Assembly (NCBI RefSeq): GCF_009914755.1
Contig: NC_060925.1
Source of the DNA: the human T2T-CHM13v2.0 reference genome, Homo sapiens
Reading direction: 5' to 3' (one strand)
Length of the DNA: 64,000 nucleotides
How positions within the stretch are numbered: position 1 is the first letter of the stretch; each line of letters begins with the position of its first letter. The notes below the pieces were generated by a model. The model worked only from the letters and a program-made list of their open reading frames with translations, ran no database searches and had not been told where the DNA came from. Below are positions 405 through 50,859 of the stretch, in pieces. A program made the position numbers and the translations under genes.

Positions 405-1199
405 GATAGAGGAGAATGAGTTTTAATGCAGTAGGGAGGATGACAACATCTAAAGGTTAATTGTGCTTCTTAGTCCTGGAAGAGCCAGGTCAGGACACAA
501 TGGATGGGGGCTCGGTGCAGGGAGTAGAGAAACAGATATGTCAGGGAAAAATGAGAGTAAAAGAGGCAGTTTATACAAATTGTATATATCTGTAAAAGGT
601 CTGCATTGCCTGGAGTTTCCTAAATTGTGGATTAAAGGAGTGGAATTTGTTTCAGAGAAAAATTCGAAATAGGAGATGGCAACACAATAAGTAGTTTCTC
701 TTTATAAAATAGAAATAATAGTGGCATTTACTTTATGGACTTACGAGACCAATTTGTAGTTTATATATAGCGTGATATAAGTATTTGATTTATGATGAGG
801 AAGGTTTAAGCTGCACTAATGAGGAATCAAATAAGAAATACATGCTAAAATGCTATATAATTGTATAAGATGATGCAAATAAGTCATACTTTTATTCTCC
901 TTCATGATCTAGTAGTATTTTTAACCTTGGAGTTGTAAGTACAGTGGGCATAGAAGGACCTATCTGACAGGTTGAGCAAATCATTAAAAGGTGAGGAATT
1001 CCAAGTGTTAAAAGGTATTACTAATTTCTAAGGTGTTGAAGGTGTTTGTTCTATGGGCTAAATAATAGCAAATGGAAGGGAATTATCCCCCATTTAATTG
1101 TTTAGTCCATATGTCCGAATCTTTTGTCTGATACTAAGCACAAAATTTATAGTCTTTTTACATTTATACACATGTATTGGCTTCCTTTTACACTATTAG

Positions 1200-3333: not shown

Positions 3334-3423
3334 AGACAAAAAGAAAGAAGACAAAGAAAAGAAACGTTCTAAAACACCACCAAAAAGTTACAGCACAGCC
3401 AGACGTTCTAGAAGTGCAAGCAG
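3334..3423 (+). CDS. SRSF11: SRSF11 coding exon, 90 nt, phase 2-2
   Basis: tAG 3332-3333, CAG|GTAAGG donor; reads (R)DKKKEDKEKKRSKTPPKSYSTARRSRSAS(R), in frame with its neighbours. Confidence 0.96.
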
Positions 3424-4064
3424 GTAAGGTGGCATTGTGAATTCTTGGCAATTATTTTTTTAACTTTGCTTCTAACAGTATCAGTACGCTGTCAGTATGA
3501 AGTCTTTTCCAGAACATAAGTATTTCAGTGTTGAAAAAAGTTACATTTTGCTGTTATTTAAAGTTTTTAAAAGGCAATTTGTGAAGAATAATGTAGTTTA
3601 TTTTTCTTTTTACTTAATATTTTATGGTCTAGAGTATATTTGAAGTAACATGGAATTCAAGAGAGGTGAGTTTTTCTCTTTATAGTTTAAGTTTTAATGG
3701 CTAAACCATACTGAATTGTTCCATTAAGTAAGCTTATTATAGTAAGCTATATTTATCATCTGCATGTTAGTACTTGAGAATTTTTCTATCCCTTTTAATG
3801 ACTGTTGAATTAATGGGAAGCAATGCAGGTTCTGGTTTGTGTCATTCTTAGACTAATTCTATCTTTAAGCTGTCAGTGAAAATTGAAATGTTGCAGACCT
3901 TACTGCACAAAAAGCACATTTTCATACTTAATTTGGGATTTATATGATAGTAAGGGCTGGACTTCATTCCATTTTTCAGATCTCATTCACATGTTTTGCT
4001 GCAGTGCTTGTTTTATTCATCAACATTACTTAAATTCACTAGGAGAAGGTTCATGCCATATAAA

Positions 4065-5040
4065 AAAAAATAACTGAAATGTATAAAAGACCTAAATGTA
4101 AGAGCCAAAACTATAAAACCTTTAGAAAGAAACAAAAGTGAATCTTTAAGACCATGAGCTTGGTGGTTTCCTAGATATGACTTCAAAAGCATAAGCAACA
4201 GAAGAAAAGAAAATTTTGGAATTCACCAAAAGTTAAAACATTTGTATTTCAAAGGATACTATCAAGAAAGTAAAAACCTAGAGTGCTAGTTAGAAAATTC
4301 TTTATATATTCTCTATTAAGAACTCTTAGAACTCAGCAATAGACAGGCAACCCAATTTAAAAATGGCAAAGAATCTGTAGCCATTACTCCAAAGGAGATA
4401 TGCAAATATCTAGTAAGTACATAAAATCTGTTCAACATCATTAGTCACCAAGGAAATACAAACCAGACCACAGTGAGATATGTCACAGTCACTAGGATGG
4501 TTATAAATCAAAAAGACAGATGATAGCTGAGCCTGACAGATGATAGTAAGTGTTGATTAGGATGTGGAGAAATTAGAACCCTGTGCATTGCTAGTATGAA
4601 TATAAACTGGTACAGGTGTTTTAGAAAACAGTCTGGCATTTCCTAAAAATGTTAAACATAGAGGTTTTTGACCCACCAGTTGTACCCCTGGGGGAAAATG
4701 AAAACATTTTCACAGAAAAACTTTTATGTGAATGTTTGTGGCATTATTTCATAATAGCCAAAAAGTTAACTATCCATTAACAAATGGATAAACAGAATGG
4801 TATATCTATACAATTGAATATTTTTCAGTGATAAATAAGGTTGATACATGCTACAGTATGGATGAAACTTGCAAACATCCATGAAAGGCCGTGTATTGCG
4901 TGATTCCTTTTATATGAAATGCCCAGAATAGGCAAATCTATAAAGATACCAAGTAGATTACTGATTGCTGGGGAGATAGGGAGGATTAGAGTGATAACTA
5001 AAGGGTAGGGAGTTTTTGGGGTGGTGAAAATTTTCTTAAA
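4065..5040 (+). mobile_element. Old L1 (L1M-type) ORF2 end and 3'UTR fragment
   Basis: Typical motifs: aaagacctaaatgtaagagc, ggatgtggagaaattagaaccct, caaatggataaacagaatggtatat, atgcccagaataggcaaatcta. Confidence 0.85.
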
Positions 5041-6082
5041 AACTAAATTTTTAAGCATGAAAATGAAACCAAATGTAAGTACAGAAGGAAATGCTGAATC
5101 AGGCCTGAGGGATAGGTGGCAAAGAGATAGAAAAGATGGAAGGTACTACATATATTTTCTTACCTTAAAAACTGTTGAGGATTTTTTTTTTTACCTGTTG
5201 CTTTATATAATGTACTTGTAAGTGCCTTCTCATGCTGTATTATTGGATCACTCTAAATTAAGGCATCTTCTGTGAGTTATTAAATACCCACTGTGTTTGT
5301 AGTTGTGCTACAGTCTGTTGAAGGACACGGAAATGTAATATAAAATACTTCTTCCGTCTAGAGAATTTGGAGTTTCAGTTACATAAGACAGTAGCAAAAA
5401 GTATAAGGTGCACAGTCGTGACAATGTTTGATAAGTGAATGCTCAGTTATGTGTAACGTTTCCAGGACAAGGGTCACAGAGGGCTGTGTAAGTAGAAAAA
5501 AAGCTTCATTTGGAAATTAGACAACTAAGTACAGGGTTTTTTAAGTCTGATAACTTTTGAGAATCAGGAACAGAATTTTTTTTTTTAAGTTACAGTAAAA
5601 AGGAGGGGAAGGCTGTATATCAGCTGTATATCTTCAAAGTAATTGGTGAAAGCAGGGTTTTGGGGGACTGCAGGAGGGCGATTTTGCTAGAGTATAAGGT
5701 TTCTACCTTTCCACTAACTAGTTCTCTGAATTTCATCTAATGATTTAAAGGTGAATGTGGGGATATTTTATTAGTAACTACCTTCTATATCACATTATTG
5801 AATTATTCTGTACTTACTCTGAACACTGAATGTTTGAACCAAAAACTAACTTCTTCAGTAATAGTTTACTTCACACGTCACCCCTCTCGCATTAGTTTTG
5901 TTAAATCAGTTTTTTCTCAAGCTTAGTATTTCTAACATTTTGTCATCAATTAAAAGAATTACTAGAAATTAGGAGTTTTCTTGAGGGTAGTAAAGGGAAA
6001 GATTCATGGTTTGCAGATGATTATATTACTCATTTAATTGTTTAGCTTATACCAGTATTGTGAAACAATCTTTCATTTTTCT

Positions 6083-6418
<336 letters not shown>

Positions 6419-6467
6419 TAAGATCACACTGTATTTTAAAACCTAGTTTGCACATTTGTGATTCTAG

Positions 6468-6563
6468 AGAGAGACGACGACGAAGAAGCAGGAGTGGCAC
6501 AAGATCTCCTAAAAAGCCTCGGTCTCCTAAAAGAAAATTGTCCCGCTCACCATCCCCTAGGAG
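6468..6563 (+). CDS. SRSF11: SRSF11 coding exon, 96 nt, phase 2-2
   Basis: ctAG 6466-6467, GAG|GTAAGA donor; reads (R)[31 protein letters not shown](R). Confidence 0.96.
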
Positions 6564-7019: not shown

Positions 7020-7123
7020 GTATGTTTACAAATTGATTTATTTTTATATTTGGGGTGATGTTGGTACTTTCAGAAGTTATTTTTCTTTGGAGAAGTTTAC
7101 TTTTATTATTCTCCTTGGCAAAG

Positions 7124-7321
7124 CAGGTTACACGGGATTATGATGAAGAGGAACAGGGGTATGACAGTGAGAAAGAGAAAAAAGAAGAGAAGAAACCAAT
7201 AGAAACAGGTTCCCCTAAAACAAAGGAATGTTCTGTGGAAAAGGGAACTGGTGATTCACTAAGAGAATCCAAAGTGAATGGGGATGATCATCATGAAGAA
7301 GACATGGATATGAGTGACTGA
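7124..7321 (+). CDS. SRSF11: SRSF11 terminal exon, coding part (acidic tail); NAGNAG acceptor allows a start at 7124 or 7127
   Basis: AAG|CAG| tandem acceptor; reads QVTRDYDEEEQGYDSEKEKKEEKKPIETGSPKTKECSVEKGTGDSLRESKVNGDDHHEEDMDMSD*, TGA 7319-7321. Confidence 0.96.
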   Translation, partial: QVTRDYDEEEQGYDSEKEKKEEKKPIETGSPKTKECSVEKGTGDSLRESKVNGDDHHEEDMDMSD

Positions 7322-10125: not shown

Positions 10126-11026
10126 ATCTGTAAAACAGTAATTTTTAAAATGTAGCCTTTGGTGCCTGGGACATTAAATGATAGCTGCTATTTGATTATG
10201 GGGCCCTTAAAAGTTATGTAACTAATAATTTGTGTAGGGGGTAATGTTAAAAGCACAAAATAAATTGCATACCTTTTATTGAAAAGGCTGTGTTGCCCTT
10301 AACTGTTTTCATGAAGATGGATCTTAGGTAAGTTTCCTCGTGGCAATTCTATACATGGAAGACAGAAAAATGCAAATAGGCACTTGGGAAAAGGAAGGAG
10401 AGGATAAAAATTACTGTTAACCTTGGAGCTACATCTTAAAACTGAGTCAGGTTCTGGAGTGTGCATTATACAGCTTATGTCATGCAGATTACAGTATTAA
10501 TACATCAAATTTATCTCTAGCAAAATTATCACTCAGTTGGGCACTAGATGAAGGGTTGGATCCATGCATGCTGTTTGTAGATTGATACACATCTTTTCAA
10601 ATGGAATTGAGATTTCTTTTCCCTCAGTCTGCCTCAAAACCAGCTAATGCATTTCATCCCTGTGCTTCTATTTTTTCTAATCAAGTACATGTGGTTGTGT
10701 TTTAATTAAATATGGGTGTAATGGAATTGTTACTCATACTTTTAAAAGCATTCAGAATGTCTATTAAGGTTTTATTAGCAGAAGTAGTAATTGTACCTTT
10801 ATAAATTTCTCAATGAGACAATTTTTGGAGTGGTAGATATTTTGAATTTCAACCTGTTTTACTCAGTTTTGTTTCTATTCCCATTTTCATTTTATGTCAA
10901 AGTATATGTGAAATTTATTTAGACATTCTTAGCAAAATATCTTAGGTGAGTACCATGACAATTCTTTTATCAGTGGTAATATTCTTTAGAATATACTTAA
11001 GGTTTATCATAGAAGATGGTTAGCAA

Positions 11027-32205: not shown

Positions 32206-35745
<3,540 letters not shown>

Positions 35746-49069: not shown

Positions 49070-50859
49070 CTAAAACAAAACCAAATATTTAAAAGTAAAA
49101 TTTTTAGGTTAAAAAAAGTGTCAAGGTAATATATTTTTCCATAAATATGTAACATGTAGGTGAAAATAAATATTCCTTTGGTACTTGAAATTATCAAACT
49201 ATCTTACATTTTCTAGGTTATACAACATATACATCTAAGTTATTCAATAAGTTGAAAAATACACAAAAGCATACATTTCAAATCAGTAAAGAGAAATTTA
49301 AAATACATAAAAATGTATGGTAGTTAATTTGCAAATGATTTTAAATAAAATTGCCACATAGCATTTCTTCAGATCCTACTCCCAAGTAGCACAAAGCTAT
49401 CTCAAAACTATTAAGCTGGCAGTCAAATATCACGAGTAACAAGGAGGGGTCAGGGATAACACTGTTCCCATTTTATAGATAGAAAAAAAGTGGAATAAAA
49501 AGAAATAAATAGTCCACGTCACACAAGAATCTCTAGTACAACCAGAATTAATGACCTGTTCACATTCTCTATTCTCTAACAGGCACCAAACTTCAAGTTA
49601 CAGCTGCCTGTTTTCAACAAAGAAAAGAGGAAAAGAGTACCCTTGCTCACCAATACAATTAAAGTGTTTTAGGGAAACTCAAGTGGTGTAAAGGACATCA
49701 AAAAAAGTCATTACTTTCTTTCAATAAAGTCCTCTTAAACCTTCAACATTAACTTTTACCTTTTTCAGACCCACAGGTATTCAGAGTTTGAAATACCTTA
49801 CTTAAAAAAAAAACAAAAAAAAGATAAATAACTTACTGAAAACAAGCTTCCCATTTCTATCTGCATGCAAATCACATGTCTCCACCCTGCTGCTGTTTAC
49901 TGACATTTCAAAACTACATGTTCAGAGTTGTGTTCCAGTCCACCTTGCAAAAAAAGCAAAGCATTCTGCACCTGTTTCTACCTACAAAATGGGAACCATA
50001 AGTATTACTGACTCCCTCCTTACCTGTCAAAGATTTAAGAAGATCACCTAGATGCTTCAAGAGCTTTGAGCTGCTTAGCAGTAGTACTAGATGATTAGCA
50101 GTTTCAATTTTTATCTTCTCTTGAAGTGATCCATCTAATGCTGCCCAGAAGAACAAAGTACAAACAAATAAGACTTTAAAGCCAACAAATGGACTGCAAT
50201 GTAGGACCTCACAACTGAGAATGCTATAATGCCATTAGGCTTAGAGAGGAAAATCAGTGAGCTTAGATTTCCTAACAGAATTTATCTGTGGCTGGGAAAT
50301 AACCAGGTGGTAATTATCAGTTTTTGAAACCTTATAATGAAAAACCACTTAGTAAATGTAAATTATCATATCAACAAAATGTTAAGTGTGTATTCCCCAT
50401 TACCCAGCCACTTAATTTCTTGCTACTTATAACAGGCAAAGGCATGTAAAAGGATGATAAACACATCATTTATAATGGCAGAAAACTGGACACAAATGTG
50501 ACTATTCATTTAAATGTCCAAAAACAAGACTGAATATGTTAAGTTACAGTATATCCATCATATAGAATACTATGCAATTGCTAAAAAGAGTGAACTAGCA
50601 CTACATGTACTGGTAAGAGAAGATTTCTACGACATACTAAAGAATGAGGAAAAAAAGCCAGCTGCAAAACAGTAGATACGATATGACACGACACTTTATG
50701 AAAAAGTAAGCATCAACAACAAAAGGCTACCTATTATTATGAGCTCATATTTACATATGGAGAGCATAAAAAAGGTCTGGAGGATATAAAAACTGGTGAC
50801 ATTCTGCAAGGGGATGTGGGACTGTGGGCAGTGGCCAAGGAGGGCTTTTTAGCTTTATG

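What the first reader, a model, noticed from the sequence alone, without database searches (positions are those of the whole stretch)
3633..3665. Candidate 33-nt poison microexon in SRSF11 with downstream RBFOX/QKI motifs
Seen: 209 nt after the 3423 donor there is a long U-rich tract with a branch-like CTTAAT (ttatttttctttttacttaatattttatggtctAG, AG at 3631-3632), then 33 nt, then a near-perfect donor GAG|GTGAGT (3665/3666). The segment has the same geometry as the real exons (starts with A, ends with AG, phase 2-2, length divisible by 3). In frame it reads R-V-Y-L-K-STOP (TAA 3646-3648), well upstream of later junctions, so it is an NMD substrate. TGCATG (RBFOX) sits at 3761-3766 and ACTAAT (QKI-like) at 3852-3857, and the region is TE-free up to about 4065. 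Established: SR-protein genes self-regulate through conserved poison exons, downstream UGCAUG promotes inclusion, and SRSF11 itself helps regulate neural microexons. Inference: a tissue-regulated AS-NMD switch, or, if it escapes NMD, an SRSF11 truncated within the RS domain. I cannot tell whether it is already annotated.
Basis: partly seen in the sequence, partly recalled or inferred. Interest (0 to 1): 0.8.

Follow-up and report, generated by a model that had tools for sequence, protein, structure and literature searches.

The report
Annotated stop-codon mini-exon in SRSF11
The 33-base segment is a real alternative exon of the human splicing-factor gene SRSF11 that is already in the RefSeq annotation; including it puts an early stop codon into the message, which is ordinary for this gene family, and nothing here shows that it is a regulated switch.

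Summary
The hub's gene table already lists 3633-3665 as an exon of other SRSF11 transcripts, so it is annotated. The stop lies 113 and 252 nt upstream of two later exon junctions, so the inclusion isoform is a textbook NMD candidate.

The regulated-switch reading has no support. Half of all 33-mers in the SRSF11 introns of this window carry an in-frame stop. Similar AG...GT geometries occur 24 times in the window. The motifs are single copies near chance frequency. The segment is longer than the 3-30 bp microexon definition seen in one abstract and has no UGC before its acceptor.

The SRSF11 poison exons in the passages I read appear to lie upstream of this window, and no passage names this exon. 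The chr12 processed pseudogene lacks it. Conservation, junction reads and CLIP could not be tested.

Verdict: already known, low interest.

The parts
3334..3423 (+). SRSF11 exon 9 of NM_001350605.2 (upstream constitutive exon; ends in phase 2 with AG)
   Evidence: Hub gene table; sequence; translation; donor CAGGTAAGG matches the consensus at 8 of 9 positions
3599..3632 (+). U-rich tract and 3' splice site (AG at 3631-3632). Branch-point candidates by the yUnAy rule are A3612 (TTTAC) and A3617 (TTAAT)
   Evidence: Pyrimidine fraction 0.65 over -20..-4, within the 0.59-0.76 range of the five SRSF11 acceptors in the window. The branch points are inferred from a recalled consensus and were not tested
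3633..3665 (+). 33-nt alternative cassette exon, listed in RefSeq as an exon of other SRSF11 transcripts
   Evidence: Hub gene table
3646..3648 (+). In-frame TAA stop codon, reached after R-V-Y-L-K
   Evidence: the stop is 17, 113 and 252 nt upstream of the three downstream exon junctions
3663..3671 (+). 5' splice site GAG|GTGAGT
   Evidence: 8 of 9 consensus matches. This ties the best of the 11 annotated internal donors in the window (3 of 11 reach 8, none reaches 9). The 9-mer occurs twice in the window against 0.31 expected
3659..3680 (+). Small predicted hairpin (8 bp, 2 of them G-U) pairing the purine-rich exon end and the donor G with the downstream UUUCUCUU
   Evidence: Present in both the MFE and centroid structures, but the 191-nt region folds no better than shuffles (z -0.45; 68 of 200 shuffles fold at least as well). 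Noted only; probably chance
3761..3766 (+). Single TGCATG (RBFOX-type hexamer), 96 nt downstream of the donor
   Evidence: It is the only + strand copy in intron 3424-6467. There are 15 + strand copies in the 64 kb window
3852..3857 (+). Single ACTAAT (QKI core ACUAAY) with no nearby UAAY half-site
   Evidence: There are 34 + strand ACTAAY in the window, 3 of them in this intron
6468..6563 (+). SRSF11 exon 10 (downstream constitutive exon)
   Evidence: Hub gene table

Best explanation
Positions 3633-3665 are a genuine, already annotated, minor alternative cassette exon of SRSF11. It lies 209 nt into the intron between exons 9 and 10 of NM_001350605.2.

Inferred splicing steps: U2AF-type recognition of the U-rich tract and AG at 3631-3632, and U1 pairing with the near-consensus donor GAG|GUGAGU, define the 33-nt exon. 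The short 209-nt upstream intron may help.

Shown by sequence: inclusion keeps the phase, but the fifth new codon is TAA.

Inferred from the 50-55 nt rule: because two exon junctions lie 113 and 252 nt downstream of the stop, the mRNA should be degraded by EJC-dependent NMD. Each inclusion event therefore removes one productive SRSF11 message.

My lean, not shown: inclusion is low, and the exon is an unproductive by-product or at most a small contributor to SRSF11 dosage. It does not look like the gene's dedicated autoregulatory device, which the passages I read describe as ultraconserved poison exons that appear to lie upstream of this window.
For: - The hub RefSeq table lists 3633-3665 among the exons of other SRSF11 transcripts.
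- Splice signals and frame were read directly. The donor matches the consensus at 8 of 9 positions, tying the best annotated donors in the window. The acceptor's pyrimidine content falls within the range of SRSF11's constitutive acceptors.
- The stop is 113 and 252 nt from later junctions.
- The single SRSF11 processed pseudogene found (chr12, locus L002) joins exon 9 directly to exon 10. This fits the exon being absent from the dominant mRNA.
Against: - No RNA-seq, NMD-inhibition or conservation data could be reached, so the inclusion level, NMD sensitivity and selection are all untested.
- A near-consensus donor and a TGCATG at +96 (P=0.024 for a random position) are what a regulated exon would also show.
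- The papers speak of 'two poison exons' without coordinates in the text I saw, so I cannot formally exclude that this exon is one of them.
- One pseudogene is a sample of one transcript.
Confidence: 0.8

Rival explanations
1. A dedicated, tissue-regulated poison exon. RBFOX proteins bind UGCAUG 96 nt downstream (QKI possibly binds ACUAAU at +187) and promote inclusion in brain and muscle, lowering SRSF11 through NMD.
For: - TGCATG lies downstream, where RBFOX enhances inclusion by the established RNA map (recalled). It is the only + strand copy in the 3-kb intron, and P=0.024 for a random position to have one within 101 nt.
- The donor is strong.
- The flanks are single-copy.
- SR genes are known to use poison exons (passages).
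Against: - There is one copy of each motif, chosen after the fact. The window-wide TGCATG count is at expectation (31 against 34.88). ACTAAY within 192 nt has P=0.10, and no bipartite QKI partner lies nearby.
- An in-frame stop is expected by chance in 51% of intronic 33-mers.
- Equally good AG...GT geometries are common (24 in the window).
- None of the 11 papers opened names this exon. Its 20-mer and my estimated hg19/hg38 coordinates are found in no held paper.
Confidence: 0.12
2. The inclusion isoform escapes NMD and makes a C-terminally truncated SRSF11. It would end in ...SRSASRVYLK and lack the last 143 residues, with a function of its own.
For: Translation shows that such a protein would keep everything encoded up to exon 9. 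The hub table does not say whether the transcripts carrying the exon are coding models or non-coding NMD candidates.
Against: Two exon junctions lie more than 55 nt downstream of the stop (113 and 252 nt), which is the standard NMD configuration. No such protein is mentioned in any passage read.
Confidence: 0.05
3. It is not a functional exon at all: a chance pseudo-exon that entered the annotation from rare mis-spliced transcripts.
For: Matched-quality AG...GT pairs are frequent: 16 on the + strand and 8 on the - strand, against 8.8 expected per strand. Of those 24, only 3 coincide with annotated splice sites by coordinates in the hub table (3633-3665; 33290-33333; 50024-50073). The chr12 pseudogene lacks the exon.
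Against: RefSeq models rest on transcript evidence. The donor is as good as the best real donors in the window.
Confidence: 0.05

Closest known systems
Ultraconserved poison cassette exons of SR-protein genes, including SRSF11's own published ones (Lareau 2007 and Ni 2007 as cited in the passages; Leclair 2020 as cited)
   Same: A cassette exon in an SR-family gene with an in-frame stop upstream of later junctions, so the inclusion isoform is unproductive and an NMD candidate.
   Different: The published SRSF11 exons are described as mouse 'exon 4' and as ultraconserved exons between splice-graph exons 5 and 9, which I read as upstream of this window. This exon sits in the RS-domain region between exons 9 and 10. 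Its conservation, NMD response and autoregulation are untested. It is much shorter, at 33 nt.
Neural microexons controlled by SRRM4 with SRSF11 and RNPS1 (Gonatopoulos-Pournatzis 2018, seen only as cited)
   Same: A very short exon whose length is divisible by three, lying in a gene of that pathway.
   Different: It is 33 nt, against the 3-30 bp definition in the abstract of PMC9929638. It carries a stop instead of coding. No UGC lies in the 40 nt before the acceptor. No UCUCUC or CUCUCU hexamer occurs in the intron before position 6100.
RBFOX-dependent AS-NMD exons in RNA-binding-protein genes (recalled: Jangi et al. 2014; a similar statement for GPATCH8 appears in PMC6811834)
   Same: A PTC exon in a splicing-factor gene with a UGCAUG in the downstream intron.
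   Different: There is one motif copy at chance-like frequency. No conservation or CLIP evidence was available here.
Low-level, poorly conserved unproductive splicing ('noisy' PTC exons; general knowledge, recalled)
   Same: An intronic segment with adequate splice sites and a stop that is expected by chance in half of such segments. It is absent from the retrocopied mRNA.
   Different: The donor is unusually close to consensus, and the exon is stable enough in transcript data to be annotated.

Membership tests
SR-gene poison exon (AS-NMD) | Alternative cassette exon inside an SR-family gene | tested here: met
   The hub RefSeq table lists 3633-3665 as an exon of other SRSF11 transcripts. Splice signals were read.
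SR-gene poison exon (AS-NMD) | In-frame premature stop more than 50-55 nt upstream of a later exon junction | tested here: met
   TAA at 3646-3648; 113 and 252 nt to the exon 10/11 and 11/12 junctions.
SR-gene poison exon (AS-NMD) | High or ultra-conservation of the exon and flanking intron across vertebrates | not testable with these tools
   No vertebrate genomes or conservation tracks are held. The only available check was that 3424-4065 is single-copy in the human assembly.
SR-gene poison exon (AS-NMD) | Inclusion isoform rises when NMD is blocked | not testable with these tools
   No expression data. The papers that measured Srsf11 NMD isoforms refer to another exon.
SR-gene poison exon (AS-NMD) | Inclusion is promoted by the gene's own protein or by other SR proteins (feedback) | not tested
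   Only a partial UUCUCUU run follows the donor. No exact UCUCUC or CUCUCU hexamer occurs before position 6100.
Neural microexon (SRRM4/SRSF11/RNPS1 type) | Length within the microexon range (3-27 nt recalled; 3-30 bp in the abstract of PMC9929638) | tested here: not met
   33 nt; abstract listing.
Neural microexon (SRRM4/SRSF11/RNPS1 type) | UGC motif close upstream of the 3' splice site | tested here: not met
   No TGC in 3593-3632. The motif is attributed to SRRM4 in the supplement table of PMC12129014.
Neural microexon (SRRM4/SRSF11/RNPS1 type) | Preserves the open reading frame | tested here: not met
   In-frame TAA.
RBFOX-activated exon | (U)GCAUG in the downstream intron within about 300 nt | tested here: met
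   TGCATG at 3761-3766, 96 nt after the donor. Chance for a random position is P=0.024 within 101 nt and 0.068 within 300 nt.
RBFOX-activated exon | Motif conservation, CLIP binding, and response to RBFOX levels | not testable with these tools
   No such data are held.
QKI-regulated exon | Bipartite site: ACUAAY plus a UAAY half-site within about 20 nt (rule recalled) | tested here: not met
   The ACTAAT core is present, but no TAAC or TAAT lies in the 25 nt on either side.

The most novel reading that the evidence does not exclude
SRSF11 carries a further, so far undescribed regulatory poison exon inside its RS-domain region, distinct from the ultraconserved upstream ones. A downstream RBFOX site would switch it on in brain or muscle. 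This would add a tissue-specific dosage control, or a truncated protein lacking the last 143 residues, to a factor that itself helps splice neural microexons.
Probability: 0.1. Interest if true: 0.4.

Novelty: already known. Interest (0 to 1): 0.15.

Why it matters
If it were a regulated switch, it would add a tissue-specific layer to the dosage control of a splicing factor involved in neural microexon inclusion. As the evidence stands, it is one more annotated stop-codon-bearing alternative exon in a gene family where unproductive isoforms are the rule, and the published SRSF11 poison exons appear to lie elsewhere in the gene. The useful lesson is methodological. A stop codon, a tidy AG...GT geometry and single RBFOX or QKI hexamers are all expected at appreciable frequency in AT-rich introns. 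They do not separate a functional poison exon from background without conservation or expression data.

Tried and rejected
- **Key papers not held:** the ids I tried for Leclair 2020 (id taken from the reference lists) and for Ni 2007 (id recalled and possibly wrong) are not held. The primary descriptions of SR-gene poison exons were therefore not read.
- **Literature search for this exon:**
  - SRSF11 with 'poison exon' found 35 papers, 25 listed. SFRS11 with nonsense-mediated and ultraconserved found 1. SRSF11 with microexon and NMD found 14. SRSF11 with 'unproductive splicing' found 21. Rbfox with Srsf11 and nonsense-mediated found 40, 20 listed.
  - I opened passages in 11 papers. None names a 33-nt exon or an exon between exons 9 and 10.
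  - A 20-mer of the exon is in 0 held papers.
  - Six estimated hg19/hg38 coordinates are in 0 held papers. They rest on the hg19 gene span in a supplement and, for hg38, on a recalled span.
- **Supplements:**
  - PMC12129014 holds one Srsf11 row, 'decreased inclusion of poison exon', with no coordinates.
  - PMC12052203 holds only imaging values and the gene span.
  - Supplements of the bioRxiv preprints are closed. They may hold exon coordinates that bear on which exons are meant: the event table of 10.1101/798009 and the figures of 10.1101/2023.11.21.568046.
- **Retrocopies as a record of mature mRNA:** only one was found, on chr12, and it lacks the exon. This is weak evidence.
- **RNA structure:** the fold of 3590-3780 is no better than shuffles (z -0.45). 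I rejected it as an explanation.
- **Cross-species conservation:** no vertebrate sequence collection is on hand, so it was not tested.
- **Spliced protein isoforms:** they were not sent to the protein search tools, because that would need joined sequence.

Full report
**Observation.**
- Exon 9 of SRSF11 ends at 3423 with donor CAG|GTAAGG.
- 209 nt later comes a U-rich tract (3599-3630) and AG at 3631-3632.
- A 33-nt segment follows at 3633-3665.
- Then comes GAG|GTGAGT.
- TGCATG is at 3761-3766 and ACTAAT at 3852-3857.

Joining exons 8 and 9 with the segment by coordinates gives ...SRSAS-R-V-Y-L-K-stop, with TAA at 3646-3648. Frame 0 of the segment is open, and frame 2 also has a stop.

**Annotation.** The hub's RefSeq table for T2T-CHM13 lists 3633-3665 among the 'exons of other transcripts' of SRSF11. 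That settles its open question about annotation and makes the feature already known. In T2T coordinates the exon is chr1:70,125,633-70,125,665. The offset is confirmed, which places exon 9 at 70,125,334-70,125,423.

**Is the sequence evidence above chance?**

The donor is good.
- It matches the MAG|GTRAGT consensus at 8 of 9 positions.
- That ties the best of the 11 annotated internal donors in the window: 3 of 11 reach 8, and none reaches 9.
- The exact 9-mer occurs twice in 128 kb of both strands against 0.31 expected, and 2 of 100 shuffles reached 2.

The acceptor is ordinary. Its pyrimidine fraction is 0.65, against 0.59-0.76 for the five SRSF11 acceptors and 0.59-0.94 for the eight ANKRD13C acceptors.

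The whole geometry is common.
- With cut-offs set at the segment's own values, the window contains 16 such short AG...GT pairs on the + strand and 8 on the - strand.
- Simulations gave 8.82 (sd 3.07) per strand in 100 Markov runs.
- Four of the pairs lie in the SRSF11 part of the window.
- Only 3 of the 24 coincide with annotated splice sites.
- An earlier run with a slightly higher cut-off missed the segment itself because its fraction is 0.647.

An in-frame stop carries little information. 2703 of 5261 (51%) 33-mers from the three SRSF11 introns in the window have one in this phase.

**Motifs.**
- TGCATG is not enriched in the window: 31 matches on both strands against 34.88 expected, and 75 of 100 shuffles reached 31.
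- On the + strand there are 15 copies, one of them in this intron.
- A random position has a TGCATG within 101 nt downstream with P=0.024, and within 300 nt with P=0.068.
- A random position has an ACTAAY within 192 nt with P=0.10.
- ACTAAT has no TAAY partner within 25 nt. The bipartite QKI rule is recalled.
- No TGC lies in the 40 nt before the acceptor. No UCUCUC or CUCUCU hexamer occurs in the intron before position 6100.

The TGCATG at +96 is a fair lead. As a single, post hoc motif without conservation or CLIP, it is not evidence of regulation.

**Consequences of inclusion.**
- The stop is 17 nt from the junction with exon 10, 113 nt from the 10/11 junction and 252 nt from the 11/12 junction.
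- By the 50-55 nt rule (established knowledge), the isoform is an NMD candidate.
- If translated, the protein would lose the 143 C-terminal residues encoded by exons 10-12 and end in VYLK.

**Other evidence.**
- The stretch 3424-4065 matches only itself in the assembly. That is compatible with no young repeat, with the tool's caveat about common words.
- Exon 9 has one other match in the genome, on chr12 at 83% identity.
- That locus (L002) is a processed pseudogene covering exons 8-12. It joins exon 9 directly to exon 10, without the 33 nt. This fits a minor isoform, but it is a sample of one.
- The RNA fold of 3590-3780 is unremarkable: z -0.45, and 68 of 200 shuffles fold at least as well. 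It contains a small 8-bp hairpin (3659-3680) over the donor, which I treat as probably chance.

**Literature.** SRSF11 AS-NMD is well known, but it is described elsewhere in the gene.
- PMC5311500 (passages) uses mouse 'Srsf11 including exon 4' as an established NMD target. It shows that isoform rising in Upf2 knockout cortex and after thapsigargin.
- bioRxiv 10.1101/2023.11.21.568046 (passages) places ultraconserved PTC exons between splice-graph exons 5 and 9.
- PMC6811834, 10.1101/2022.12.06.519414, PMC3973340, PMC12129014 and 10.1101/2025.11.25.690524 (passages) mention SRSF11 poison exons or cell-type-specific splicing without coordinates.
- 10.1101/798009 (passages) concerns a mouse Srsf11 intron-retention event.
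- PMC12825443 (one passage) only cites Leclair 2020.

None of these passages names a 33-nt exon or one between exons 9 and 10. The exon's 20-mer and my estimated coordinates are in no held paper. I therefore claim only that I found no description in these searches. Leclair 2020 and Ni 2007 were not held under the ids I tried, Lareau 2007 was not looked up, and preprint supplements are closed.

**Conclusion.** The best-supported reading is a real, annotated, minor cassette exon that yields an unproductive, NMD-candidate SRSF11 transcript (confidence 0.8). The 'microexon' label fails the length, UGC and coding criteria. Conservation, junction usage, NMD response and protein binding are the decisive data, and none could be reached here.

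Noticed in passing
window 7122-7127: Tandem NAGNAG acceptor of the last SRSF11 exon (AAG|CAG|G). The hub table lists both 7124 and 7127 as exon starts, and the short form drops one glutamine. PMC4132704 (one passage) reports SRSF11 as the one tandem-splice-site case with a significant isoform shift between culture states, but the passage does not say which site.
   Followed up: partly
L002 (G000 C12:19182978-19186063), about 1372-2370: Processed pseudogene of SRSF11 on chr12, 83-92% identical to exons 8-12. It was copied from an mRNA that skipped the 33-nt exon and used the 7127 (minus-CAG) acceptor.
   Followed up: partly
window 6447-6467: Annotated alternative acceptor 21 nt upstream of exon 10. 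It is in frame, replaces R with S and inserts LHICDSR, for a net gain of 7 residues inside the RS region.
   Followed up: partly
window 3659-3680: The purine-rich exon end (AAGAGAGG) can pair with the UUUCUCUU run just after the donor, forming an 8-bp hairpin over the 5' splice site in both the MFE and centroid folds. The region as a whole folds no better than shuffles.
   Followed up: no
window 10441-10641: The RefSeq 'silencer' element in the SRSF11-ANKRD13C intergenic stretch holds three of the window's 31 TGCATG matches (10481 and 10563 on the - strand, 10565 on the + strand).
   Followed up: no
window 933-990, 1830-1847, 5722-5750: Three other short AG...GT pseudo-exons in the SRSF11 part of the window match the same crude criteria as the annotated 33-nt exon. 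None is listed in the hub table.
   Followed up: no
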